The notes under the pieces: generated by a model
Seen by the model: only the letters and a program-made list of their open reading frames with translations
Told to the model about the DNA's origin: nothing
Database searches by the model: none
Made by a program: the position numbers and the translations under genes
Origin: a virus
Taxonomy: Duplodnaviria; Heunggongvirae; Uroviricota; Caudoviricetes
DNA length: 12,094 bases
IMG/VR virus record: IMGVR_UViG_2657245634_000013
Location: 1-12,094 of that record
Reading direction: 5' to 3' (one strand)
Part shown: one piece after another, positions 254-12,094 of the stretch
Numbering within the stretch: position 1 is the stretch's first letter
How the letters are laid out: the number at the start of each line of letters is the position of its first letter

Positions 254-262
254 TTTTTCCCT

Positions 263-658
263 GTGGAGCTTAAAATCGCTTATCAGGAATCCGGCGAATG
301 GCCCGATGATGGAATCGAAATTGACGACACTGTTGCCGCCGAATTTATGAAGGAAGCACCAGAAGGAAAATACAGAGGTGTCATCGACGGAATGCCTGCA
401 TGGATTGATATTCCACCGCCAACTCATGAGGAACAAATTGCCGCAGCCGAACTGGAAAAGCAGCAATTGATTAATCAGGTCAACGAATACATAAACAGTA
501 AGCAATGGCCTGGTAAAGCGGCGATTGGTCGCCTGAAAGGTGAGGAACTGGCGCAATATAATTTGTGGCTGGATTATCTGGACACACTGGAACTGGTCGA
601 TACTTCCGGTGCGCCAGATATTGAATGGCCTACGCCTTCGGCAGTTCAGGCCAGATGA
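263..658 (+). pseudogene. Phage tail fibre assembly protein (Tfa/U-like chaperone), apparently 5'-truncated
   Basis: Translation ends ...LDTLELVDTSGAPDIEWPTPSAVQAR, the typical Tfa C-terminal motif (DTS.APD..WP). The frame opens only at 248 just after a TAA; the first possible start is a GTG at 263 with no RBS. The product is shorter (131 aa) than the neighbouring 185-aa Tfa and sits right against the IS end. Confidence 0.6.
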
Positions 659-1187
659 CATCCGGCGCAGTGCTGGTATCTGTTACCGTCACCGCGTCAA
701 TATAATCCAGCACGGCGTTAAGTCGGGTTGTTTCTGCCTGCGTCAGCTTCCGCCCGGCCTGTAATTTCAGTTGAATCAGACTGATGGAAGCCATTGCAGC
801 ATCAATCAGCGACTGGCGCTGTGCTTCTGCCGCGTCTAGTGCGGCACTATGCTGTGCCTCAGTATCTGTCATCCATTTCTCACCATCCCATTTATCGTAT
901 GGCGTTAACGGTGAAAGCGTGACATAACCGTCTTTGATGGCACCGATATAATCCACTGTAACAGCTACGCCATTTTCGATTGAGTAAACAGTCTCATTGC
1001 GGTGGTCTTCTTCATGGCTCCATCCCTTACCCGTAAATACTGCCACTTTCCCCGGAATGTATTCGCCCGGGTCAATACCAGTGGAACAGGCGGGCATACT
1101 TACGCCAGTATTAATATATTCATCAGACCAGCCCGAATATTCAGACGTTACTGCATCATAATAAAAACAACGCATATCACCCGGCAC
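630..1187 (-). CDS. Phage tail fibre assembly protein (alternative Tfa/U'-like chaperone of the invertible segment)
   Basis: 185-aa ORF ending ...LDYIDAVTVTDTSTAPDVIWPELPKA (Tfa C-terminal motif). It lies immediately downstream of the minus-strand tail-fibre exon and overlaps the plus-strand tfa convergently at 630-658. Start is GTG at 1187 or ATG at 1175. Confidence 0.75.
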   Translation of the reverse strand: MPGDMRCFYYDAVTSEYSGWSDEYINTGVSMPACSTGIDPGEYIPGKVAVFTGKGWSHEEDHRNETVYSIENGVAVTVDYIGAIKDGYVTLSPLTPYDKWDGEKWMTDTEAQHSAALDAAEAQRQSLIDAAMASISLIQLKLQAGRKLTQAETTRLNAVLDYIDAVTVTDTSTAPDVIWPELPKA

Positions 1188-1223
1188 TGTAGCCAGCCCA
1201 TTTTCATCAAAAAACAGGTTTCA

Positions 1224-1730
1224 TTATGCAGCCCTCACAATATAATTAAAGGCGATGTTACGTGGACGGTTTTCATTAGCTGTTGGCACGACACGAGAGG
1301 CGTCGAATCCAAGGTCATCGGTTTTGCCTATATCAGTTGTGTTATTCGGCATTCTCGCAGATCGTGTTCCTGCATCATAAAAAGCCCCTCTGATTGCATC
1401 AAAAGACATACCGATCCCGCCATCTGCGAATCCCTCAATATTTCTTATTGCATCCCCCTGTGAAGATAATAATTGTCGCCCGGCATCCACTCCACGTCCG
1501 TCATCCCAGCCACGAATAAATTCACCGCGTAAATCAGGCAATTTATTTGTCGGATAAACCTTTGCCAGTTCCGGGTATTCTTCAGCAGAAAAAGCCGCAC
1601 CGTTGCATTTCAGCCAGCCAGTAGGCGGTGTGGCTGAAGGCCACGGAACAGGCACACCAACGGGTAATGCCGAACCTTCTCCCAAACCAACGTTTATGAA
1701 AATGCAGAGATAACGGCTAACTGGCATCAT
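1224..1730 (-). CDS. Tail-fibre variable C-terminal exon (Mu S'v / P2 H C-terminus-like), silent orientation; the real tail-fibre portion is about 1224-1675
   Basis: Contains PVGVPVPWPSATPPTGWLKCNGAAFSAEEYPELAKVYPTNKLPDLRG and the C-terminal ...NIAFNYIVRAA, both characteristic of P2 H / Mu S variable domains. The first ~18 codons lie outside the crossover site and the frame is closed by TAA just upstream, as expected for the non-expressed copy of an invertible tail-fibre gene. Confidence 0.8.
   Translation of the reverse strand: MMPVSRYLCIFINVGLGEGSALPVGVPVPWPSATPPTGWLKCNGAAFSAEEYPELAKVYPTNKLPDLRGEFIRGWDDGRGVDAGRQLLSSQGDAIRNIEGFADGGIGMSFDAIRGAFYDAGTRSARMPNNTTDIGKTDDLGFDASRVVPTANENRPRNIAFNYIVRAA
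1676..1701. other. Putative DNA-invertase crossover site (gix/hix/pix-like)
   Basis: TTCTCCCAAACC-AA-CGTTTATGAAAA: two imperfectly inverted 12-bp half-sites around a 2-bp core, similar to hixL TTCTTGAAAACC-AA-GGTTTTTGATAA and gix TTATCCAAAACC-TC-GGTTTACAGGAA (quoted from memory). It sits at the constant/variable boundary of the tail-fibre exon and next to the invertase gene. Confidence 0.55.
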
Positions 1731-1757
1731 CTCCGGTTTTTATTCAGGGGGATGATC

Positions 1758-2351
1758 ATGCTTATTGGCTATGTACGCGTGTCAACAAATGACCAGAACA
1801 CGGAATTGCAGAGTAATGCGCTGGAGTGTGCAGGATGTGAGCTGATTTTTGAGGATAAAATCAGCGGCTCGAAGTCCGACAGGCCGGGGCTGAAAAAACT
1901 GCTCAGGACACTATCGGCAGGAGACACGTTGGTTGTCTGGAAGCTGGACAGACTGGGGCGCAGTATGCGGCATCTCGTTACGCTGATAGAAGAGTTGCGC
2001 CAGCGTGGTGTGAATTTCAGAAGCCTGACTGACAGTATTGATACCAGTACCCCAATGGGCCGTTTCTTTTTTCATGTCATGGGTGCCCTGGCTGAAATGG
2101 AGCGAGAACTCATTGTCGAGCGGACACGCGCAGGACTGGAAGCGGCCAGAGCCAAAGGTCGTATTGGTGGCAGACGACCGAAACTCACCGCGAGAGAGTG
2201 GGAGCAGGCAGGACGGTTGCTGGCTGCGGGGGAATCTCGTCAACGTGTGGCGCTGATTTTTGATATTGGCCTGTCCACGCTCTATAAAAAATTCCCCTCA
2301 TCAGCGACAAAGAATAAATTGTGTCATCCCTTAGCCAACCGGGACAAATAG
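1758..2351 (+). CDS. Serine DNA invertase of the Gin/Hin/Pin/Cin family
   Basis: MLIGYVRVSTNDQNTELQ...VVWKLDRLGRSMRHL...MGRFFFHVMGALAEMERELIVERT...GRIGGRRPKL...STLYKKFP: resolvase/invertase catalytic N-terminus with the catalytic Ser in VRVSTNDQ and a C-terminal HTH; closely resembles e14 Pin as recalled. The ATG at 1758 is preferred over 1752 because AGGGGG at 1744-1749 gives better RBS spacing. Confidence 0.9.
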   Translation: MLIGYVRVSTNDQNTELQSNALECAGCELIFEDKISGSKSDRPGLKKLLRTLSAGDTLVVWKLDRLGRSMRHLVTLIEELRQRGVNFRSLTDSIDTSTPMGRFFFHVMGALAEMERELIVERTRAGLEAARAKGRIGGRRPKLTAREWEQAGRLLAAGESRQRVALIFDIGLSTLYKKFPSSATKNKLCHPLANRDK

Positions 2352-2380
2352 CCTGACATCTCCGGCACAACTGAAAATAC
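2321..2380 (+). promoter_or_regulatory. Possible Ogr-dependent P2-type late promoter for the FI-FII-E-T-U-D operon
   Basis: TGT(2323-2325)-N12-AAC partial dyad about 50 bp upstream of a -10-like GAAAAT (2374-2379), 30 bp before the FI start. This resembles the P2 late-promoter architecture (TGT-N12-ACA centred near -55) but the match is imperfect. Confidence 0.25.
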
Positions 2381-2410
2381 CACTCACCCATTAACCACGG
2401 AGTTAAACGG

Positions 2411-3601
2411 ATGAGTGACTATCATCACGGCGTGCAGGTGCTGGAGATTAACGACGGCACCCGCGTCATTTCCACCGTATCCACTGCCATTGTCGGCATG
2501 GTCTGCACGGCCAGCGATGCGGATGCGGAAATCTTCCCCCTCAATAAACCGGTGCTGATCACCAATGTGCAGAGCGCGATTGCAAAGGCCGGTAAAAAAG
2601 GCACGCTGGCGGCATCGTTGCAGGCCATCGCTGACCAGTCAAAACCGGTCACCGTTGTCGTGCGCGTGGAAGACGGCACCGGCGACGACGAAGAAACGAA
2701 ACTCGCGCAGACCGTTTCCAATATCATCGGCACCACTGACGAAAACGGTCAGTACACCGGACTGAAAGCCCTGCTGGCGGCGGAGTCGGTTACCGGTGTT
2801 AAACCGCGTATTCTCGGTGTGCCGGGACTGGACACCAAAGAGGTGGCGGTTGCACTGGCATCAGTCTGTCAGAAGCTGCGCGCTTTCGGGTATATCAGCG
2901 CATGGGGCTGTAAAACCATTTCCGAGGTGAAAGCCTACCGCCAGAATTTCAGCCAGCGTGAGCTGATGGTCATCTGGCCGGATTTCCTCGCATGGGATAC
3001 GGTCGCCAGTACCACCGCCACCGCGTATGCCACCGCCCGTGCGCTGGGCCTGCGCGCTAAAATCGACCAGGAGCAGGGCTGGCATAAAACGCTGTCCAAC
3101 GTCGGGGTAAACGGTGTTACCGGCATCAGTGCCTCTGTATTCTGGGATTTGCAGGAGTCCGGCACCGATGCTGACCTGTTGAACGAGTCAGGTGTCACAA
3201 CGCTGATTCGCCGTGACGGTTTCCGATTCTGGGGTAACCGTACCTGCTCTGATGACCCGCTGTTCCTCTTTGAAAACTACACCCGCACCGCGCAGGTGCT
3301 GGCCGACACGATGGCTGAGGCGCACATGTGGGCGGTGGACAAGCCCATCACCGCAACGCTGATTCGCGACATCGTTGACGGCATCAATGCCAAATTTCGT
3401 GAGCTGAAAACAAACGGCTATATCGTGGATGCGACCTGCTGGTTCAGCGAAGAATCCAACGATGCGGAAACCCTTAAGGCCGGAAAACTGTATATCGACT
3501 ACGACTATACCCCGGTTCCTCCTCTTGAAAACCTGACCCTGCGCCAGCGTATTACCGATAAATACCTGGCAAATCTGGTCACCTCGGTTAACAGCAATTA
3601 A
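2411..3601 (+). CDS. FI: Contractile tail sheath protein (P2 gpFI)
   Basis: 396-aa ORF beginning MSDYHHGVQVLEINDGTRVISTVSTAIVGMVCTASDADAE..., essentially matching P2 FI as recalled; same length as P2 FI; GGAG RBS at 2400-2403. Confidence 0.95.
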   Translation: MSDYHHGVQVLEINDGTRVISTVSTAIVGMVCTASDADAEIFPLNKPVLITNVQSAIAKAGKKGTLAASLQAIADQSKPVTVVVRVEDGTGDDEETKLAQTVSNIIGTTDENGQYTGLKALLAAESVTGVKPRILGVPGLDTKEVAVALASVCQKLRAFGYISAWGCKTISEVKAYRQNFSQRELMVIWPDFLAWDTVASTTATAYATARALGLRAKIDQEQGWHKTLSNVGVNGVTGISASVFWDLQESGTDADLLNESGVTTLIRRDGFRFWGNRTCSDDPLFLFENYTRTAQVLADTMAEAHMWAVDKPITATLIRDIVDGINAKFRELKTNGYIVDATCWFSEESNDAETLKAGKLYIDYDYTPVPPLENLTLRQRITDKYLANLVTSVNSN

Positions 3602-3613
3602 GGAGCCTGACCG

Positions 3614-4132
3614 ATGGCAATGCCGCGCAAACTCAAGTTAATGAACGTCTTTCTGAACGGCTACAGCTATCAGGGCGTTGCAAAGTCCGTCACGCTGCCA
3701 AAACTGACCCGTAAACTCGAAAACTATCGCGGTGCGGGGATGAACGGAAGCGCACCGGTAGACCTCGGCCTTGATGACGATGCGCTGTCAATGGAGTGGT
3801 CGCTCGGGGGCTTCCCGGATTCGGTTATCTGGGAGCTTTACGCCGCAACCGGCGTGGATGCCGTACCGATTCGTTTTGCAGGCTCTTACCAGCGCGACGA
3901 TACCGGCGAAACGGTAGCCGTTGAAGTGGTCATGCGTGGACGTCAGAAAGAAATCGACACCGGCGAGGGTAAACAGGGAGAAGACACCGAGTCGAAAATC
4001 TCCGTAGTCTGCACCTATTTCCGGCTGACGATGGACGGTAAGGAGCTGGTCGAAATCGACACCATCAACATGATTGAGAAGGTGAACGGCGTCGACCGGC
4101 TGGAGCAACACCGCCGCAATATCGGCCTGTAA
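3614..4132 (+). CDS. FII: Tail tube protein (P2 gpFII)
   Basis: 172-aa ORF MAMPRKLKLMNVFLNGYSYQGVAKSVTLPKLTRKLENYRGAG... directly after the sheath gene; AAGGAG RBS at 3599-3604; length equals P2 FII. Confidence 0.95.
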   Translation: MAMPRKLKLMNVFLNGYSYQGVAKSVTLPKLTRKLENYRGAGMNGSAPVDLGLDDDALSMEWSLGGFPDSVIWELYAATGVDAVPIRFAGSYQRDDTGETVAVEVVMRGRQKEIDTGEGKQGEDTESKISVVCTYFRLTMDGKELVEIDTINMIEKVNGVDRLEQHRRNIGL

Positions 4133-4188
4133 TTTTCATCCGGTCAGTCAGGCTGACCGGTTAACCCCGATTCAGAAGTGAGAAAACC

Positions 4189-4464
4189 ATGAACAAAGAA
4201 AATGTCATTACCCTGGACAATCCGGTCAAACGTGGTGAGCAGGTTATCGAACAGGTCACGCTGATGAAACCCAATGCCGGGACGCTGCGCGGTGTCAGTC
4301 TGGCAGCGGTCGCGAACTCCGAAGTCGATGCACTGATTAAGGTGCTGCCGCGCATGACGGCACCGATGCTGACCGAGCAGGAAGTCGCCGCGCTGGAACT
4401 GCCTGACCTTGTGGCGCTGGCCGGTAAGGTGGTCGGTTTTTTGTCGCCGAACTCGGTGCAGTGA
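4189..4464 (+). CDS. E: Tail assembly chaperone (P2 gpE)
   Basis: 91-aa ORF MNKENVITLDNPVKRGEQVIEQVTLMKPNAG... in the position and size of P2 E; contains the TTTTTTG slippery heptamer near its 3' end. Confidence 0.9.
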   Translation: MNKENVITLDNPVKRGEQVIEQVTLMKPNAGTLRGVSLAAVANSEVDALIKVLPRMTAPMLTEQEVAALELPDLVALAGKVVGFLSPNSVQ

Positions 4465-4616
4465 CGTTTCCAAAAAATCTCTCGGTCGATGACCTGATGG
4501 CGGATGTGGCAGTGATATTTCACTGGCCGCCATCAGAACTGTATCCCATGAGCCTGACCGAACTCATCACATGGCGCGAAAAGGCGCTCCGGCGAAGCGG
4601 AAACACGAATGAGTAA
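4189..4616 (+). CDS. Tail assembly chaperone frameshift product (P2 gpE+E'), made by -1 ribosomal frameshift at T_TTT_TTG (4437-4443)
   Basis: After a -1 slip at 4437-4443 the new frame stays open and reads ...FVAELGAVTFPKNLSVDDLMADVAVIFHWPPSELYPMSLTELITWREKALRRSGNTNE, ending at TAA 4614-4616 and overlapping the T start. This is the conserved E/E' (lambda G/GT-type) arrangement. Confidence 0.8.
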
Positions 4617-7056
4617 CAATGTAAAATTACAGGTATTGCTCAGGGCTGTTGACCAGGCATCCCGCCCGTTTAAATCCATCCGCACAGCGAGTAAGTCGCT
4701 GTCGGGGGATATCCGGGAAACACAAAAATCACTGCGCGAGCTGAACGGTCAGGCATCCCGTATTGAGGGATTCCGCAAGACCAGTGCACAGCTCGCCGTG
4801 ACTGGTCATGCACTTGAAAAGGCACGGCAGGAGGCCGAAGCCCTTGCCACACAGTTTAAAAATACCGAACGTCCGACCCGTGCTCAGGCGAAAGTGCTGG
4901 AATCCGCAAAGCGTGCGGCGGAGGACTTACAGGCGAAATATAACCGCCTGACGGATTCCGTTAAACGCCAGCAGCGGGAACTGGCCGCTGTGGGAATTAA
5001 TGCCCGCAATCTTGCACATGATGAGCAGGGACTGAAAAACCGTATCAGTGAAACCACCGCACAACTTAACCGTCAGCGCGACGCGCTGGCGCGTGTCAGT
5101 GCGCAACAGGCAAAACTTAACGCAGTAAAACAGCGTTATCAGGCCGGAAAGGAACTGGCCGGAAATATGGCCTCAGTAGGCGCTGCCGGTGTGGGGATTG
5201 CGGCGGCGGGAACGATGGCCGGAGTTAAGTTGCTGATGCCCGGTTATGAGTTTGCGCAGAAAAACTCAGAATTGCAGGCCGTGCTAGGTGTGGCAAAAGA
5301 CTCCGCCGAAATGGCTGCACTACGCAAGCAGGCGCGCCAGCTCGGCGACAACACCGCCGCCTCGGCGGATGATGCTGCCGGTGCACAGATTATTATCGCG
5401 AAAGCCGGTGGGGATGTTGATGCCATTCAGGCGGCAACGCCGGTCACGCTGAATATGGCGCTGGCGAACCGTCGCACGATGGAAGAAAACGCCGCCCTGC
5501 TGATGGGGATGAAATCCGCCTTTCAGCTTTCAAACGATAAGGTCGCTCATATCGGGGATGTTCTCTCCATGACGATGAACAAAACCGCCGCCGATTTTGA
5601 CGGCATGAGCGATGCGCTGACCTATGCCGCACCTGTGGCAAAAAATGCCGGTGTCAGCATTGAAGAAACCGCCGCAATGGTCGGGGCGCTGTATGATGCA
5701 AAAATCACAGGCTCAATGGCGGGGACGGGAAGCCGTGCCGTGTTAAGCCGCCTGCAGGCACCGACGGGAAAAGCATGGGATGCACTCAAAGAGCTTGGAG
5801 TGAAAACCTCAGACAGCAAGGGAAACACCCGACCAGTATTTACCATTCTGAAAGAAATGCAGGCCAGTTTTGAGAAAAACCGGCTCGGTACTGCCCAGCA
5901 GGCTGAATACATGAAAACTATTTTCGGGGAGGAGGCCAGCTCAGCCGCCGCCGTGCTGATGACTGCCGCCTCAACCGGAAAGCTGGACAAACTGACCGCT
6001 GCGTTTAAAGCCTCAGACGGGAAGACCGCCGAGCTGGTAAATATCATGCAGGACAACCTCGGCGGTGACTTTAAAGAGTTTCAGTCCGCTTATGAGGCGG
6101 TGGGGACTGACCTGTTTGACCAGCAGGAAGGCGCACTGCGTAAGCTCACGCAGACGGCCACAAAGTATGTGTTAAAACTCGACGGCTGGATACAGAAAAA
6201 CAAATCACTGGCGTCAACCATCGGCATCATTGTCGGTGGTGCACTGGCACTGATTGGTGTCATCGGTGCCATTGGCCTCGTAGCCTGGCCGGTTATCACC
6301 GGCATCAATGCCATCATCGCGGCAGCAGGCGCAATGGGGGCAGTCTTCACGACGGTTGGCAGTGCTGTTATGACCGCCATCGGGGCTATTAGCTGGCCGG
6401 TTGTGGCCGTGGTGGCCGCAATTGTCGCCGGGGCGTTGCTTATCCGTAAATACTGGGAGCCTGTCAGCACATTCTTTGGCGGTGTGGTGGAAGGGCTGAA
6501 AGCGGCATTTGCGCCGGTGGGGGAACTGTTCACGCCACTTAAGCCGGTGTTTGACTGGCTGGGCGAAAAGTTACAGGCCGCGTGGCAGTGGTTTAAAAAC
6601 CTGATCGCCCCGGTTAAAGCCATCCAGGACACCCTGAACCGTTGCCGTGACACGGGCGTCATGTTCGGGCAGGCACTGGCTGACGCGTTGATGCTGCCGC
6701 TTAATGCGTTCAACAAACTGCGCAGTGGTATTGACTGGGTACTGGAAAAACTCGGTGTTATCAACAAAGAGTCAGACACACTTGACCAGACCGCCGCCAG
6801 AACTCATGCCGCCACGTATGGCACCGGTGGTTATATTCCGGCGACCAGCTCTTATGCAGGCTATCAGGCTTATCAGCCGGTTACGGCACCGGCTGGCCGC
6901 TCTTATGTGGACCAGAGTAAAAACGAATATCACATCAGTCTGACGGGCGGTACTGCGCCGGGGACTCAGCTCGACCGCCAGTTACAGGATGCGCTCGAAA
7001 AATACGAGCGGGATAAACGTGCGCGCGCCCGTGCCAGCATGATGCATGACGGTTAA
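4609..7056 (+). CDS. T: Tail tape measure protein (P2 gpT)
   Basis: 815-aa ORF with an N-terminal coiled-coil-rich region and a long Gly/Ala-rich hydrophobic segment (aa about 530-600), typical of tape measure proteins. Same length and position as P2 T. Confidence 0.95.
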   Translation: MSNNVKLQVLLRAVDQASRPFKSIRTASKSLSGDIRETQKSLRELNGQASRIEGFRKTSAQLAVTGHALEKARQEAEALATQFKNTERPTRAQAKVLESAKRAAEDLQAKYNRLTDSVKRQQRELAAVGINARNLAHDEQGLKNRISETTAQLNRQRDALARVSAQQAKLNAVKQRYQAGKELAGNMASVGAAGVGIAAAGTMAGVKLLMPGYEFAQKNSELQAVLGVAKDSAEMAALRKQARQLGDNTAASADDAAGAQIIIAKAGGDVDAIQAATPVTLNMALANRRTMEENAALLMGMKSAFQLSNDKVAHIGDVLSMTMNKTAADFDGMSDALTYAAPVAKNAGVSIEETAAMVGALYDAKITGSMAGTGSRAVLSRLQAPTGKAWDALKELGVKTSDSKGNTRPVFTILKEMQASFEKNRLGTAQQAEYMKTIFGEEASSAAAVLMTAASTGKLDKLTAAFKASDGKTAELVNIMQDNLGGDFKEFQSAYEAVGTDLFDQQEGALRKLTQTATKYVLKLDGWIQKNKSLASTIGIIVGGALALIGVIGAIGLVAWPVITGINAIIAAAGAMGAVFTTVGSAVMTAIGAISWPVVAVVAAIVAGALLIRKYWEPVSTFFGGVVEGLKAAFAPVGELFTPLKPVFDWLGEKLQAAWQWFKNLIAPVKAIQDTLNRCRDTGVMFGQALADALMLPLNAFNKLRSGIDWVLEKLGVINKESDTLDQTAARTHAATYGTGGYIPATSSYAGYQAYQPVTAPAGRSYVDQSKNEYHISLTGGTAPGTQLDRQLQDALEKYERDKRARARASMMHDG

Positions 7057-7070
7057 GGAGGTGACGAAAA

Positions 7071-7550
7071 ATGATGCTCGCGTTAGGTATGTTTGTTTTT
7101 ATGCGCCAGACGCTGCCACACCAGACCATGCAGCGTGAATCAGATTATCGCTGGCCGTCAAATTCCCGTATCGGTAAACGGGATGCCTTTCAGTTTCTCG
7201 GTGTTGGCGAGGAAAACATCACGCTTGCCGGTGTGCTTTATCCCGAACTGACCGGCGGAAAGCTGACGATGACCACGCTCAGGCTGATGGCAGAGGAAGG
7301 CCGGGCGTGGCCGTTGCTGGATGGCACAGGCATGATTTACGGCATGTATGTCATCAGCAGGGTGAGTGAAACAGGGAGTATTTTCTTTGCAGACGGCACA
7401 CCCCGGAAAATTGATTTTACGCTGTCGCTCACCCGCGTGGATGAATCACTGGCCGCGCTTTATGGCGATATCGGTAAACAGGCGGAGTCGCTCATCGGTA
7501 AAGCTGGCAGTATGGCGACCAGATTCACGGGTATGACGGGGGCGGGATAA
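7071..7550 (+). CDS. U: Tail protein (P2 gpU)
   Basis: 159-aa ORF after T with AAGGAGG RBS at 7055-7061; its stop overlaps the D start (TAATG), indicating translational coupling. Length and order as in P2. Confidence 0.9.
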   Translation: MMLALGMFVFMRQTLPHQTMQRESDYRWPSNSRIGKRDAFQFLGVGEENITLAGVLYPELTGGKLTMTTLRLMAEEGRAWPLLDGTGMIYGMYVISRVSETGSIFFADGTPRKIDFTLSLTRVDESLAALYGDIGKQAESLIGKAGSMATRFTGMTGAG

Positions 7551-8713
7551 TGCTGGATGCACTGACATTTGATGCAGGCAGTACGCTGACGCCGGATTAC
7601 ATGCTGATGCTCGACAGCAGGGATATTACCGGCAATATCAGCGACCGTCTGATGAGTATGACCCTGACGGATAGCCGGGGCTTTGAGGCTGACCAGCTTG
7701 ATATTGAACTGAACGATGCCGACGGGCAGGTCGGGCTGCCGGTTCGTGGTGCTGTTCTGACGGTGTATATCGGCTGGAAAGGTTTTGCCCTGGTATGCAA
7801 AGGGAAATTCACCGTTGATGAGGTTGAACACCGGGGCGCGCCGGATGTTGTCACCATCCGCGCCCGGAGTGCAGATTTTCGCGGGACGCTCAATTCCCGC
7901 CGTGAAGGCTCATGGCATGACACCACGCTCGGTGCGATTGTTGAGGCGATAGCCTCCCGTAACAGGCTGAAAGCCAGTGTCGCTCCGTCACTGGCCGGAA
8001 TTAAAATCCCGCACATCGACCAGTCGCAGGAGTCTGATGCGAAATTCCTGACCCGTCTTGCAGAACGCAACGGCGGTGAGGTGTCGGTAAAAATGGGAAA
8101 ACTGTTGTTTCTCAAAGCGGGGCAGGGGGTGACGGCCAGCGGTAAAAAAATCCCGCAGATTACCATCACCCGCAGCGACGGCGACCGCCATCATTTTGCG
8201 ATTGCTGACCGTGGAGCCTATACCGGCGTAACGGCAAAGTGGTTACACACCAAAGACCCGAAGCCGCAAAAGCAGAAGGTAAAACTGAAACGCAAAAAGA
8301 AAGAAAAACACCTGCGCGCACTGGAGCACCCGAAAGCAAAACCGGTCAGGCAGAAGAAAGCGCCAAAAGTACCGGAAGCGCGCGAAGGTGAATACATGGC
8401 CGGTGAGGCTGACAACGTTTTTGCCCTGACCACGGTATATGCCACGAAAGCACAGGCCATGCGTGCCGCTCAGGCGAAGTGGGATAAACTGCAACGGGGC
8501 GTTGCGGAGTTCTCCATCAGCCTGGCTACCGGTCGTGCAGATATTTACACGGAAACACCGGTCAGAGTGTCAGGCTTTAAGCGCGTCATAGACGAGCAGG
8601 ACTGGACCATCACTAAGGTGACACATTTTCTGAATAATAGCGGCTTCACGACGTCCTTAGAGCTTGAGGTCAGGCTTTCTGATGTGGAGTACGAAACAGA
8701 AGATGATGAGTGA
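7550..8713 (+). CDS. D: Tail protein D (P2 gpD, late control gene D)
   Basis: 387-aa ORF MLDALTFDAGSTLTPDYMLMLDSRDITGNISDRLMSMTLTDSRGFEADQLDIELNDADG... with a Lys-rich linker; length and position as in P2 D. Confidence 0.95.
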   Translation: MLDALTFDAGSTLTPDYMLMLDSRDITGNISDRLMSMTLTDSRGFEADQLDIELNDADGQVGLPVRGAVLTVYIGWKGFALVCKGKFTVDEVEHRGAPDVVTIRARSADFRGTLNSRREGSWHDTTLGAIVEAIASRNRLKASVAPSLAGIKIPHIDQSQESDAKFLTRLAERNGGEVSVKMGKLLFLKAGQGVTASGKKIPQITITRSDGDRHHFAIADRGAYTGVTAKWLHTKDPKPQKQKVKLKRKKKEKHLRALEHPKAKPVRQKKAPKVPEAREGEYMAGEADNVFALTTVYATKAQAMRAAQAKWDKLQRGVAEFSISLATGRADIYTETPVRVSGFKRVIDEQDWTITKVTHFLNNSGFTTSLELEVRLSDVEYETEDDE

Positions 8714-8794
8714 CGTTTTTATTTTATCTATTTGTTTTATAAGGATAAATTAACTAAAATGGCACCATCAACAAAACCGGAAGAGGTGCTCGCG

Positions 8795-9013
8795 ATGTTT
8801 CATTGTCCTTTATGCCAGCATGCCGCACATGCGCGTACAAGCCGCTATATCACTGACACGACAAAAGAGCGTTATCATCAGTGCCAGAACGTGAATTGCA
8901 GTGCCACGTTCATCACTTATGAGTCGGTACAGCGATACATCGTGAAGCCGGGAGAAGTCCACGCCGTAAGGCCGCACCCGTTGCCGTCAGGGCAGCAAAT
9001 TATGTGGATGTGA
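8795..9013 (+). CDS. ogr: Late gene transcriptional activator Ogr (zinc-finger)
   Basis: 72-aa product MFHCPLCQHAAHARTSRYITDTTKERYHQCQNVNCSATFITYESVQRYIVKPGEVHAVRPHPLPSGQQIMWM with the Cys-X2-Cys...Cys-X4-Cys zinc-binding motif. The ORF-track start at 8732 is an in-frame upstream extension; the ATG at 8795 gives the canonical 72-aa Ogr. Confidence 0.95.
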   Translation: MFHCPLCQHAAHARTSRYITDTTKERYHQCQNVNCSATFITYESVQRYIVKPGEVHAVRPHPLPSGQQIMWM

Positions 9014-9023
9014 TCACAAAAAT

Positions 9024-9050
9024 AGCCCCTCAGTTGAGGGGCTTTATTTA
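9024..9050 (+). terminator. Rho-independent terminator downstream of ogr
   Basis: Stem AGCCCCTC / GAGGGGCT with loop AGTT, followed by TTTATTTA, starting 11 bp after the ogr stop. Confidence 0.7.
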
Positions 9051-9056
9051 TGGTCG

Positions 9057-9075
9057 ATGTGGACGTTATGTGGAC
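9057..9075 (+). repeat. Tandem direct repeat ATGTGGAC-gtt-ATGTGGAC (11-bp spacing); candidate integrase arm-type binding sites in the prophage att arm
   Basis: Exact 8-bp repeat at 9057-9064 and 9068-9075, in non-coding DNA between the last phage gene and host sequence. Confidence 0.45.
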
Positions 9076-9081
9076 AGTGGT

Positions 9082-9103
9082 TGATATAAATCCATTTATA
9101 TCA
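9082..9103. repeat. Perfect 10-bp inverted repeat TGATATAAAT-cc-ATTTATATCA in the att region
   Basis: Exact palindrome read directly from the sequence; AT-rich; lies between the direct repeats and the host-like terminator. Confidence 0.6.
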
Positions 9104-9111
9104 TCAGGTTA

Positions 9112-9168
9112 GGTGCTTTTTTGTGACACCATCCCTGTCTTCCCCCACATGATGTGGGGGTTTTTTTT
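9112..9168 (+). ncRNA. Possible CpxQ-like sRNA remnant (3' UTR of cpxP); 5' boundary uncertain
   Basis: Terminator hairpin plus upstream GACACCATCCCTGTCTTCCCCC, recalled as the conserved part of CpxQ; no cpxP coding sequence is visible upstream, consistent with the prophage junction lying at the cpxP 3' end. This is from memory and unverified. Confidence 0.35.
9142..9168 (+). terminator. Rho-independent terminator, probably the host cpxP terminator (3' end of the CpxQ sRNA region)
   Basis: Stem CCCCCACAT / ATGTGGGGG followed by eight T residues. The preceding GACACCATCCCTGTCTTCCCCC matches my recollection of the cpxP 3' UTR / CpxQ, and fieF lies directly downstream as in the E. coli cpxP-fieF arrangement. 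Confidence 0.6.
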
Positions 9169-9249
9169 ATCCTCAATTTGCCTGCTGCTTAATGCATTGC
9201 AGATGATTTGCTTCCGTTATACTAGCGTCAGTTGATAGCGGGAGTATTT

Positions 9250-9867
9250 ATGAATCAATCTTATGGACGGCTGGTCAGTCGGGCGGCGATTGCTGCGACG
9301 GCGATGGCTTCGTTGCTATTGCTGATTAAAATTTTTGCATGGTGGTATACCGGGTCGGTGAGTATTCTCGCCGCGCTGGTGGATTCGCTGGTGGATATCG
9401 GCGCGTCGTTGACGAATTTACTGGTGGTGCGATATTCCCTGCAACCTGCCGACGATAATCACTCGTTTGGTCACGGTAAAGCAGAGTCCCTCGCGGCGCT
9501 GGCGCAAAGTATGTTTATCTCCGGTTCGGCACTATTCCTGTTTTTGACGGGTATTCAACATCTGATATCTCCAACACCGATGACAGATCCAGGCGTCGGG
9601 GTTATCGTGACAATTGTGGCGCTAATTTGTACGATTATCCTTGTCTCGTTTCAGCGTTGGGTGGTGCGCCGGACGCAAAGCCAGGCGGTGCGGGCTGATA
9701 TGCTACATTACCAGTCTGATGTTATGATGAACGGCGCAATTCTGCTGGCGCTGGGGTTGTCCTGGTACGGCTGGCATCGCGCCGATGCTCTGTTTGCATT
9801 GGGAATCGGCATCTATATTTTATATAGCGCGTTACGCATGGGATATGAGGCGGTACAGTCATTACTG
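9250..9867 (+). pseudogene. fieF: Cation-diffusion-facilitator ferrous iron/zinc efflux protein FieF (YiiP), 3'-truncated after about codon 206
   Basis: [86 protein letters not shown]... matches FieF up to ...[10 protein letters not shown]; GGAG RBS at 9242-9245. After about 9867 the frame continues only as antisense read-through of the autotransporter gene, and the cytoplasmic C-terminal domain (expected DRALPDEERQ...) is absent. Confidence 0.85.
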
Positions 9868-12063
9868 GCTGTGACCATTCATATCCAGTTCAGTCTCTGC
9901 CGCCAGACGCAGTTCATGGGTATTACCCAACACGTTATCGTTATTCAACAAAAGCGTCCCACTGCGCAGATCGGTAACACCGGTATAGTCGTTGTCTTTG
10001 TTAGAAAGCGATACGGTCTGACCCTTCTGGCTGCTGAATGCCAGGTCACCACTGCCGGTAATCTTTGCGCTGAGATCGGCGGCATTCTCGCTTTTACCGT
10101 TAGAGCTCAGCACCAGAGCATCGCTGTCGGTAGCGTGTAAATCAAGCTGGGTCAGGCCGTAACCGATATACAGACCGTCATTGTTTACCCCACTCGTCAG
10201 ACGATAGTCGTAAGTGCCGACGGCCGCTTTTTGCCCATTCTGCTGAATATCACGTTGGGCACTGCTGGAGAGGATTTGCCCATTTTTATCCTGCAATTGC
10301 AGATTGCCCGCATCGCCCAGAACTTCCGCACCTTGCGCATCAACCAACTTAATGGTGCTGTTACCATCATCGACTTCAGTGAGCGATAACGCAGAGTCAA
10401 TATCACGAGATACTGAGCTTACAACGTCACTGTCAGAAACCTGAATCACACCCTCGCCGCGCAAATCCAGCGTTTTACTAACGTTGACCGTCCCTTCTGT
10501 CATCTGTGCACCTGCTGTCAGGGCACCAAAATCAACGGTTCCGCCGGAGAATCCCAAAGTGCTAATGGAGTGAGCGCCCTTACCCACTATTACCTGGCTT
10601 CCCTGACCCGCAGTGATCCCGCCTCTCTGCAGAAACTCAGCATTCTTTTCCAGGTTAAATGTCGTGTTCTGGAACGCCAGTGAACCCTGGAACCAGTCTG
10701 TATAAGCAAACTCATCGAAGGAGAATTCGTGATTCCCCATGTTTATTTCAACAATACCTCTACCTTGAAGATCGTTATCAAATACCCAATCTTTATTGGC
10801 ATTGATTTGCAGTTTGCCATCAACATCCAGGTCCGCACGGCCGATGTTCTTGTCTTCAGAAATAACCGCGACAGCACCAGAAGCGACATCAATATATCCG
10901 CTGAATGCATAGTTATTGCCGGTCAGTGCCACTGTCCCACTGTCGATACTTATTGTACCATTGCCGGAAATCTTATTGGCAAAGGTCATGCTATCGTCAG
11001 CCTTCAGGTGTAATTTCCCGCGGTTGTTGATCTCTGCTGTACCTATATTTTGGGTGATCCCTAAAGCGCCATTTTGCTCAATTTTGACTTTACCACTAAA
11101 GGCAGAGTTATCACCGGTTAAGTAAGTCGTGCCATTGAGCGCATTGATATAGCCCAGGCCCTCGCTGCCACTGACAATATCCGCGGAAATAGTCGCGTTT
11201 TTATCCGTGTGGTTTAAGGTGATTTTCTTATCGGATGTCTTTGCCCACACAAACTCAATTTTTTCGGCATCAATAATCCCTGCAGCCTTCGCAGCACTTC
11301 CTTCCTGTGCACCTAACGCTAACTCAGAGTTGGTGCTTAAACTAATTTTCGGTGCGGATATTTTACCTCCATCTGATACGACTAATGTTGTATCAGAACG
11401 TTGGTCGTAATAACCCAGGCTAATATGTTCACGAGCATTAACTTCACCGCCGTTATTAACTGACAGGTACTGATTACCACCGTAACTGCCGTAAACGCCC
11501 ATAAAGAAGGTTTTAGAATTTACCTGGCTGCCTTCACCACTGACATTTCCCTGCAAATAGGTCAGACGGCTGGTGCCCTTAACATGGATTTTGCCGCCGT
11601 TGGAGACATTAAAATAGCCGCGATCGTGTCTCATGCCTGAGTTTGACTCATACAAATCATCAGCATATAACTCGCTGCCAGCATTGGAGACATTCAGGAA
11701 CCCCGTACCTTTCAGCAAAAAGTTAAGTGGGCCATTGATAGTTACCTTTCCTCCGGTAATATCCAACCCACCACCAGAAGCGAGAGTCAGACGCGGACGG
11801 GAAGTATCTGTCGCATTGATTACCAGATTGGCATTGTCAGTCACCGTAATACGGTAATCGATGCTCTGGTTCTCTTTGCCAAAATCAATAGTTTTATCCT
11901 GGTTTACGATGACATCATCGGCGAATACCAGAGATGAATATAAACTTATCGCGCTAATTAAAACAGCCCGGGACTTTTTTCCTTTTACTCTGCTCCCCAG
12001 CTCCGAGCAGACGCTCCAACAGTTACGGGACCTGTTCCACTTTAGCCGATATATTTTATTCAT
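9862..12063 (-). pseudogene. Autotransporter adhesin (type Va), signal peptide plus beta-helical passenger domain, 3'-truncated (no beta-barrel translocator)
   Basis: N-terminus MNKIYRLKWNRSRNCWSVCSELGSRVKGKKS... is an extended signal peptide region (ESPR) typical of autotransporters, followed by a Gly/Asn/Ser/Thr-rich repetitive passenger (GNxxxSG-type beta-helix repeats). The ORF ends ...ELDMNGHSQ with its stop codon supplied by fieF-derived sequence at 9862-9864. Lower GC than the flanking sequence. The likely start is the ATG at 12061-12063, not the track start at 12087. Confidence 0.75.
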
Positions 12064-12094
12064 CACAATCTCCAGCAATACATCCAAATAAAAC

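What the first reader, a model, noticed from the sequence alone, without database searches (positions are those of the whole stretch)
9057..9075. Tandem ATGTGGAC direct repeats in the ogr-proximal att arm
Two exact 8-bp repeats with 11-bp (one helical turn) spacing lie in non-coding DNA between the last phage gene and host-like sequence. This is the arrangement expected for arm-type integrase binding sites of a tyrosine recombinase; I recall, without certainty, that P2 Int arm sites have a similar TGTGGACA-like consensus.
Basis: partly seen in the sequence, partly recalled or inferred. Interest (0 to 1): 0.4.

Follow-up and report, generated by a model that had tools for sequence, protein, structure and literature searches.

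The report
Known integrase arm sites, WPhi-type prophage

Summary
The repeat is real: ATGTGGAC occurs at 9057-9064 and 9068-9075 (+), 11 bp start to start. On its own it is not beyond chance, since 23% of shuffles give such a pair. Comparison settles what it is.

- **Location.** The window is the right end (attR) of a WPhi-type P2-like prophage inserted between cpxP and fieF.
- **Boundary.** The phage/host junction is a 47-bp core at 9125-9171, downstream of the repeats, so the repeats lie in phage DNA.
- **Match to P2.** Window 9053-9080 aligns without gaps to the stretch the P2 reference record annotates as "Int, P arm" binding. All differences fall outside the TGTGG..C cores.
- **Published consensus.** The motif fits the consensus for P2-type arm sites, tgTGGaCa.
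- **Partner pair.** A second pair with the same 11-bp spacing and strand sits in the P' arm next to int, in WPhi, in P2 and in a sister lysogen.
- **Specificity.** In the complete WPhi and P2 genomes these are the only such pairs.
- **Breadth.** The pair is present in all 47 related attR ends carrying three different cores.

Verdict: these are arm-type sites of a heterobivalent tyrosine integrase. They are already known and of low interest. Physical Int binding was not tested here.

The parts
9024..9043 (+). Hairpin of the ogr / F-operon rho-independent terminator, followed by a T-rich tail. It marks the left limit of the att arm.
   Evidence: Terminator-like hairpin with 8 pairs, 6 of them G-C. 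It is colinear with the terminator annotated at 24265-24288 in P2 NC_001895.
9053..9080 (+). P-arm integrase-binding block, GTCGATGTGGACGTTATGTGGACAGTGG.
   Evidence: Gap-free alignment with the P2 protein_bind feature 'Int, P arm' at 24293-24320.
9057..9064 (+). Arm-type Int site 1, ATGTGGAC.
   Evidence: Invariant in 12 WPhi-type attR/attP sequences. P2 has ATGTGGTC at the same columns. Fits the consensus tgTGGaCa (PMC3448106).
9068..9075 (+). Arm-type Int site 2, ATGTGGAC(A), 11 bp downstream of site 1.
   Evidence: Invariant in WPhi-type sequences. P2 has GTGTGGAC at the same columns.
9082..9103 (.). A/T-rich perfect dyad, TGATATAAAT-CC-ATTTATATCA. Probably the A/T-rich upstream part of the IHF site.
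   Evidence: It falls in the stretch colinear with P2's annotated IHF footprint. P2 has GAAATAAA-TCCT-TTTATTTC at the same columns.
9084..9117 (+). Stretch colinear with the P2 IHF footprint. It contains an IHF core-consensus match, TATCATCAGGTTA, at 9099-9111 (1 mismatch to WATCAANNNNTTR).
   Evidence: P2 protein_bind IHF at 24324-24357, aligned without gaps. Consensus match; it is not significant by count alone.
9125..9171 (+). 47-bp att core (O), GACACCATCCCTGTCTTCCCCCACATGATGTGGGGGTTTTTTTTATC. It is shared by attP, attB, attL and attR and is the region of strand exchange.
   Evidence: Longest common substring of attL (sister lysogen) and attR (window) is 47 bp. The WPhi match ends at 9171. 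The prophage-free host match starts at 9125.
9142..9160 (+). Hairpin plus T8 inside the core. This is the phage-borne copy of the terminator that follows cpxP at attB.
   Evidence: The same hairpin lies just after the cpxP stop codon in MG1655-type attB and in attL.

Best explanation
The two ATGTGGAC copies are the P-arm, arm-type binding sites of the integrase of a WPhi-type P2-like prophage. Here they are seen in the attR junction (P-O-B') between ogr and fieF.

The integrase is a heterobivalent tyrosine recombinase. Its small N-terminal domain binds the TGTGGAC repeats, one protomer per repeat on the same face of the helix because of the 11-bp spacing. Its core-binding and catalytic domains bind the 47-bp core about 50 bp away. 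IHF bends the A/T-rich DNA in between (about 9084-9117), so that arm-bound integrase can reach the core.

A second pair of the same repeats in the P' arm next to int, now in attL about 32 kb away, completes the complex. During excision, Int bound at this attR arm and at the attL arm, with IHF and Cox, synapses the two cores and recombines them.

**Shown here:** position, motif, spacing, orientation, colinearity with the annotated P2 site, the partner pair, the conserved Int N-terminus, and the integration site.

**Inferred from established P2 and lambda biochemistry:** the actual binding and the bridging mechanism.
For: 1. The region through 9171 is 98.7-99.1% identical to phage WPhi and its relatives. 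WPhi attP carries the same block, TCGATGTGGACGCTATGTGGACAGTGG.
2. Core and boundaries are mapped. A 47-bp identity between attL and attR lies at 9125-9171, host sequence starts at 9125, and phage sequence ends at 9171. cpxP-fieF is the published WPhi prophage site in E. coli W (PMC3032704).
3. The P2 record annotates Int 'P arm' at 24293-24320, IHF at 24324-24357, attP core at 24356-24383, Cox at 24399-24472 and Int 'P' arm' at 24470-24496. The window aligns to the P-arm and IHF stretch without gaps, and the TGTGG..C cores are conserved.
4. [quoted passage not shown]
5. In the complete WPhi and P2 genomes, the only same-strand pairs of TGTGGAC (up to 1 mismatch) spaced 10-12 bp are the P and P' pairs. 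All are at exactly 11 bp and on the same strand. In WPhi, 4 of the 5 exact TGTGGAC copies are in attP.
6. The pair is present at the same place in 12 WPhi-core, 30 P2-core and 5 third-core ends. Around the P' pair the flanks diverge while the repeats stay identical.
7. Int residues 1-29 are nearly identical between P2 and the WPhi type, including Y11/D14/R16. Overall identity is 52%, and the core-binding region has diverged. This fits shared arm sites with different cores, as argued in PMC3448106.
Against: - No binding experiment is available here for this sequence or, in the papers I could read, for WPhi Int itself. The P2 footprinting papers and the 2009 WPhi Cox/att paper are not held.
- The repeat alone is not statistically unusual.
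- Within the WPhi type, the absence of variation in the 16 repeat positions is not significant: 10 variable positions in 158, so about 1 is expected in the repeats.
- The integrase gene and the P' arm are outside the window. They were examined in a sister genome, not in the window's own genome, and the window's right end is an unexplained fieF-ehaA junction.
Confidence: 0.92

Rival explanations
1. Chance repeat: two identical 8-mers that happen to lie 11 bp apart in an intergenic region, with no function.
For: 23% of dinucleotide shuffles of the window give such a pair. The 8-mer is not enriched in the window.
Against: The same pair at the same place appears in 47 related ends with three different cores. 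It is colinear with an annotated Int binding site in P2. A partner pair lies in the P' arm, and these are the only such pairs in two whole phage genomes.
Confidence: 0.01
2. Binding sites for the recombination directionality factor Cox, or for the immunity repressor C. Both bind direct repeats in P2-like phages, so the sites might belong to one of them rather than to Int.
For: Cox and C of P2-like phages recognise directly repeated boxes (PMC3936717; abstract of PMC2995052).
Against: - In P2 the Cox footprint is on the other side of the core (24399-24472), and the C operators O1/O2 are at the Pe promoter (25894-25923).
- The stretch colinear with the window repeats is annotated as Int, P arm.
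- Cox and C differ strongly between P2 and WPhi (heteroimmune; abstract of PMC1904268), whereas these repeats are shared. That matches the conserved Int N-terminus.
Confidence: 0.03
3. The sites are real Int arm sites, but this prophage end is a dead remnant: int is lost or the partner arm is missing in the window's own genome. The sites would then be relics rather than working parts.
For: The window does not include int or attL. fieF is truncated at about 9868 and joined to ehaA, a junction seen in none of 5,426 complete E. coli genomes. The source assembly or genome is therefore irregular.
Against: The window is 99.99% identical over 8.2 kb to a lysogen that has an intact int, cox, C and attL with the P' pair. 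All the tail genes in the window are open. The odd junction looks like an assembly join and lies about 700 bp outside the att site.
Confidence: 0.04

Closest known systems
Phage WPhi attP, P arm (AY135739, about 22478-22505)
   Same: Same phage type, same 47-bp core and same integration site (cpxP-fieF). Both 8-mers, their spacing and their distance to the core are identical. Overall identity is 98.7%.
   Different: One base in the 3-bp spacer between the repeats: GTT here at 9065-9067, GCT in WPhi and in all 10 IMG/VR relatives. Here the site is seen as attR of a prophage, not as attP.
Phage P2 attP, Int P-arm site (NC_001895, 24293-24320, annotated protein_bind)
   Same: Gap-free colinear block directly after the ogr terminator, followed by the IHF site. 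Two direct repeats 11 bp apart with a TGTGG..C core, and a partner pair in the P' arm overlapping the end of int.
   Different: In P2, site 1 is ATGTGGTC and site 2 is GTGTGGAC, while both are ATGTGGAC here. The core and host site are unrelated: a 27-bp P2 core versus a 47-bp WPhi core. The integrases are 52% identical.
Lambda Int arm-type sites (P1, P2, P'1-P'3) and the heterobivalent tyrosine recombinase paradigm
   Same: Same logic. An N-terminal domain binds arm sites distant from the core, IHF bending bridges arm and core, and an excisionase sets directionality. This rests on established knowledge, summarised in PMC3448106.
   Different: The arm sequence, the number and the arrangement differ: P2 types have one pair on each arm and a single IHF site. 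There is no sequence relationship between the arm sites.
186-type arm sites (consensus tgccGCCActt)
   Same: Same role in the sister group of P2-like phages (PMC3448106).
   Different: Different motif. No GCCAC/GTGGC occurs in 9014-9124 (direct reading).

Membership tests
P2-type integrase arm-binding sites | Sequence fits the consensus tgTGGaCa. | tested here: met
   aTGTGGACg at 9057-9065 and aTGTGGACa at 9068-9076. Consensus from PMC3448106.
P2-type integrase arm-binding sites | At least two direct repeats, same orientation, one helical turn (11 bp) apart. | tested here: met
   11 bp start to start. The same 11 bp is found in P2 P and P' and in WPhi P and P'.
P2-type integrase arm-binding sites | Located in phage-derived arm DNA beside the core: after the ogr terminator, before the IHF site and the core. 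| tested here: met
   Core at 9125-9171. The repeats end 49 bp before it. The order terminator, arm, IHF, core is colinear with the annotated P2 features.
P2-type integrase arm-binding sites | Partner pair on the other arm (P'), next to or overlapping int. | tested here: met
   Not in the window. Found in WPhi (22679 and 22690) and in attL of a 99.99% identical sister lysogen, GAGTGTGGACACTATGTGGACACTC.
P2-type integrase arm-binding sites | Cognate integrase with the P2-type N-terminal arm-binding domain (the Y/D/R discriminators of PMC3448106). | tested here: met
   Int of the sister lysogen has Y11, D14 and R16. Residues 1-29 match P2 Int except at 2 positions. Residues 48-324 match the P2 integrase structure 5c6k. 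int itself is outside the window.
P2-type integrase arm-binding sites | Physical binding of Int to the repeats (footprint or EMSA), and a requirement for them in recombination. | not testable with these tools
   Only the annotation of the P2 record stands for the experiment. The primary papers are not held.
186-type arm sites | Direct repeats matching tgccGCCActt. | tested here: not met
   No GCCAC or its complement in 9014-9124.
Cox (RDF) binding boxes of P2-like attP | Located on the int side of the core within the Cox footprint. | tested here: not met
   The P2 Cox footprint at 24399-24472 is to the right of the core. The window repeats are to the left of the core.

The most novel reading that the evidence does not exclude
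The perfect 10-bp A/T-rich dyad at 9082-9103, between the arm sites and the IHF core match, keeps its symmetry between P2 and WPhi through a change on both sides (9085/9100, T-A versus A-T). It might be a binding site for a dimeric factor or a structural element of the intasome in its own right, rather than just the A/T-rich half of the IHF site. The arm sites themselves offer no novel reading.
Probability: 0.04. Interest if true: 0.3.

Novelty: already known. Interest (0 to 1): 0.08.

Why it matters
It matters little beyond annotation. The result fixes this stretch as attR of a WPhi-type prophage: P arm 9053-9080, IHF region about 9084-9117, core 9125-9171. It also places the true phage/host boundary and explains the non-coding DNA between ogr and fieF. 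One point is consistent with published P2-group work. Arm sites and the Int N-terminal domain stay constant while the core and the core-binding domain change, which is how these phages switch integration sites.

Tried and rejected
- **Chance test.** A test of the repeat alone showed it is not significant by itself. I therefore relied on comparison with related phages.
- **Within-type conservation.** The test on 12 WPhi-type sequences is underpowered. There are 10 variable positions in 158 and none in the 16 repeat positions, where about 1 is expected. I do not count it as evidence.
- **A third copy.** ATGTGGAT at 9002-9009, in the last codons of ogr, lies 55 bp (5 x 11) upstream of site 1. I considered it as a third arm site and rejected it. 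It encodes the conserved Ogr C-terminus, the distance is 53 bp in P2, and it lies outside the annotated P2 P-arm site.
- **A motif in the core.** ATGTGGGG inside the core hairpin (9152-9159) resembles the motif, but it is part of the cpxP-terminator palindrome present in attB of prophage-free strains. It is therefore not a phage arm site.
- **Primary papers.** The P2 Int/IHF footprinting paper (PMID 8444786) and the 2009 WPhi Cox/att paper (PMID 19150106) are not held. The supplement of PMC3448106 with the arm-site alignment is not held either.
- **IHF consensus scan.** The scan finds the expected site at 9099-9111, but the total count is no higher than chance. The IHF assignment therefore rests on colinearity with P2.

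Full report
**Observation.** The window reads ...GGTCG ATGTGGAC GTT ATGTGGAC AGTGG... The 8-mer sits at 9057-9064 and 9068-9075 on the + strand, 11 bp start to start. It lies in non-coding DNA after the ogr stop (ogr is 8795-9013, Ogr/Delta zinc finger) and after the ogr terminator hairpin at 9024-9043. It lies before fieF (ATG at 9251). As a bare statistic the repeat is unremarkable. In 200 dinucleotide-preserving shuffles, 23% gave at least one exact 8-mer repeated at a 10- or 11-bp offset. The 8-mer with up to 1 mismatch is not enriched in the window.

**Where the phage ends.** Megablast against phage records shows 98.7-99.1% identity to phage WPhi and its close relatives, from the D-ogr spacer through window 9171. 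Against 5,426 complete E. coli genomes, prophage-free strains including MG1655 derivatives match from 9125 onward. In 788 genomes the whole 9014-9250 stretch is present.

In a lysogen that is 99.99% identical to the window over 1676-9868 (strain 15A, NZ_CP077477), I read the other prophage end, which runs cpxP, core, P' arm, int. The longest identity between that attL and the window's attR is 47 bp: GACACCATCCCTGTCTTCCCCCACATGATGTGGGGGTTTTTTTTATC, at window 9125-9171. This core contains the hairpin plus T-run that follows cpxP at attB.

The genome paper on E. coli W lists cpxP-fieF as the site of the WPhi prophage (PMC3032704). The repeats therefore lie in phage-derived DNA, 49 bp to the left of the core, in the ogr-proximal arm. 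The junction in the window is attR (P-O-B').

**What the repeats are.** The P2 reference record (NC_001895) annotates these features in order after ogr:
- terminator, 24265-24288
- protein_bind Int 'P arm', 24293-24320
- IHF, 24324-24357
- Int 'attP core', 24356-24383
- Cox, 24399-24472
- Int 'P' arm', 24470-24496

The P-arm sequence GTCGATGTGGTCAATGTGTGGACGTGAC aligns without gaps to window 9053-9080, GTCGATGTGGACGTTATGTGGACAGTGG. Differences fall on one position of repeat 1 (T versus A), in the spacer, and in the 3' flank.

WPhi attP has TCGATGTGGACGCTATGTGGACAGTGG on the ogr side and GAGTGTGGACACTATGTGGACACTCAG on the int side. The sister lysogen's attL has the same P' pair. P2's P' arm is CTGTGGACACTGTGTGGACACTC. 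Nilsson et al. [quoted passage not shown] That is distinct from the 186-type tgccGCCActt.

**Specificity and breadth.**
- I scanned the complete WPhi (32,684 bp) and P2 (33,593 bp) genomes on both strands for TGTGGAC with up to 1 mismatch. The only same-strand pairs 10-12 bp apart are the P and P' pairs. All are at exactly 11 bp, and all are on the same strand.
- In WPhi, 4 of the 5 exact TGTGGAC copies lie in attP.
- From 80 IMG/VR loci retrieved with Ogr, 47 have at least 120 bp after ogr. With the window and the two reference phages, that makes 12 WPhi-core, 30 P2-core and 5 third-core sequences. All have the pair at the same place and spacing.
- Of the three remaining loci, the one printed for L029/L036 shows the pair about 500 bp further from ogr, after an insertion. 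One, L006, has no such pair.
- Around the P' pair the flanking DNA diverges between P2 and WPhi types, while the repeats form an island of identity.
- Within the WPhi type the repeats are invariant while the spacer (9066) and the 3' flank (9078, 9080) vary. With only 10 variable positions in 158, this is not significant.

**The protein side (outside the window).** The Int of the sister lysogen is 99% identical to WPhi Int and 52% identical to P2 Int. Residues 1-29 differ from P2 at only two positions and keep Y11, D14 and R16. That spacing matches the Y/D/R discriminators of P2-type versus 186-type arm recognition proposed in PMC3448106. The region after about residue 45, the core-binding domain, is much more diverged. 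Residues 48-324 match the solved P2 integrase (5c6k), and Pfam places Int_N at 57-155 and Phage_integrase at 164-307. This leaves an N-terminal domain of about 55 residues. The result fits one arm-binding specificity shared by phages that use different cores.

**Mechanism.** Shown here:
- the motif, spacing and orientation
- the position relative to terminator, IHF-type stretch and core
- the partner pair
- the conserved Int N-terminus

Inferred from the established model for P2 and lambda-type heterobivalent tyrosine recombinases:
- Int protomers bind the two repeats through their N-terminal domains, on one face of the helix.
- IHF bends the A/T-rich stretch. The region colinear with the P2 footprint is 9084-9117, with an IHF core match TATCATCAGGTTA at 9099-9111.
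- The same protomers then reach the core.
- In excision this attR complex pairs with the attL complex, which carries the P' pair and Cox.

**Rivals.**
- Chance is excluded.
- Cox or C sites are unlikely. Their annotated P2 sites are elsewhere, and those proteins differ between P2 and WPhi while the repeats do not.
- Whether this particular prophage is still active cannot be told from the window, because int is not in it.

**Comparison and novelty.** This is another copy of the WPhi attR. It differs from the WPhi type strain in this block by one spacer base (9066 T versus C). It is a member of the P2-type arm-site class on every feature that could be tested. Only physical binding could not be tested. 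The feature is already known, and interest is low.

**Seen in passing.**
- A perfect A/T-rich dyad at 9082-9103, with a both-sides change relative to P2.
- fieF is truncated at about 9868 and joined to ehaA, a junction absent from all 5,426 complete genomes.
- An invertible tail-fibre segment (254-1702) lies in the opposite orientation to the sister lysogen, beside a serine recombinase gene.
- An A/C polymorphism at 9152 in the core loop.

Noticed in passing
window 9865-12094, junction at about 9865-9868: fieF is cut off after about 206 codons and joined to the 5' part of the autotransporter gene ehaA on the opposite strand. ehaA lies at a distant locus in other genomes. None of 5,426 complete E. 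coli genomes spans this junction (0 records cover at least 80% of a 351-bp junction probe). It is probably an assembly or concatenation join, or possibly a real rearrangement.
   Followed up: partly
window 254-1702, recombinase gene at 1752-2351: This segment encodes tail-fibre C-terminal (Collar) and tail-fibre assembly (Caudo_TAP) ORFs. It is inverted relative to the otherwise 99.99% identical prophage of strain 15A, and it lies next to a Resolvase+HTH_7 serine recombinase. It looks like a Cin/Gin-type invertible host-range switch caught in the other orientation. WPhi and P2 type strains lack this module at that place.
   Followed up: partly
window 9082-9103: Perfect 10-bp inverted repeat TGATATAAAT-CC-ATTTATATCA between the arm sites and the IHF core match. 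P2 has GAAATAAA-TCCT-TTTATTTC at the same columns, so pair 9085/9100 changed on both sides (T-A to A-T). Two relatives (L017, L037) break that pair. It is probably the A/T-rich part of the IHF site.
   Followed up: partly
window 9152 (core hairpin loop): The phage and many E. coli strains have A here, while K-12 attB has C. Some attR junctions (L017, L068) carry C. Comparing attL and attR in such lysogens could map the crossover point within the 47-bp core.
   Followed up: no
L029 and L036, about 30-550 bp after ogr; also L006: In L036 (L029 begins identically) the ATGTGGACG/ATGTGGACA pair lies about 500 bp further from ogr. Unrelated DNA is inserted between the ogr terminator and the P arm, a cargo slot at the arm boundary. 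L006 has a different downstream sequence with no such pair.
   Followed up: no
L021, L025, L056, L063, L082 (about 100-130 bp after ogr): A third att core, ...ATCAAAAAATGTCACCAATAACTGACATTGC..., is combined with a P2-identical P arm. This is a further example of core swapping with constant arm sites. The host site was not identified.
   Followed up: no
window 9002-9009: ATGTGGAT, with 1 mismatch to the arm motif, lies in the last codons of ogr, 55 bp (5 helical turns) upstream of arm site 1. The distance is 53 bp in P2, and the copy lies outside the annotated P2 P-arm site. I judged it coincidental.
   Followed up: yes
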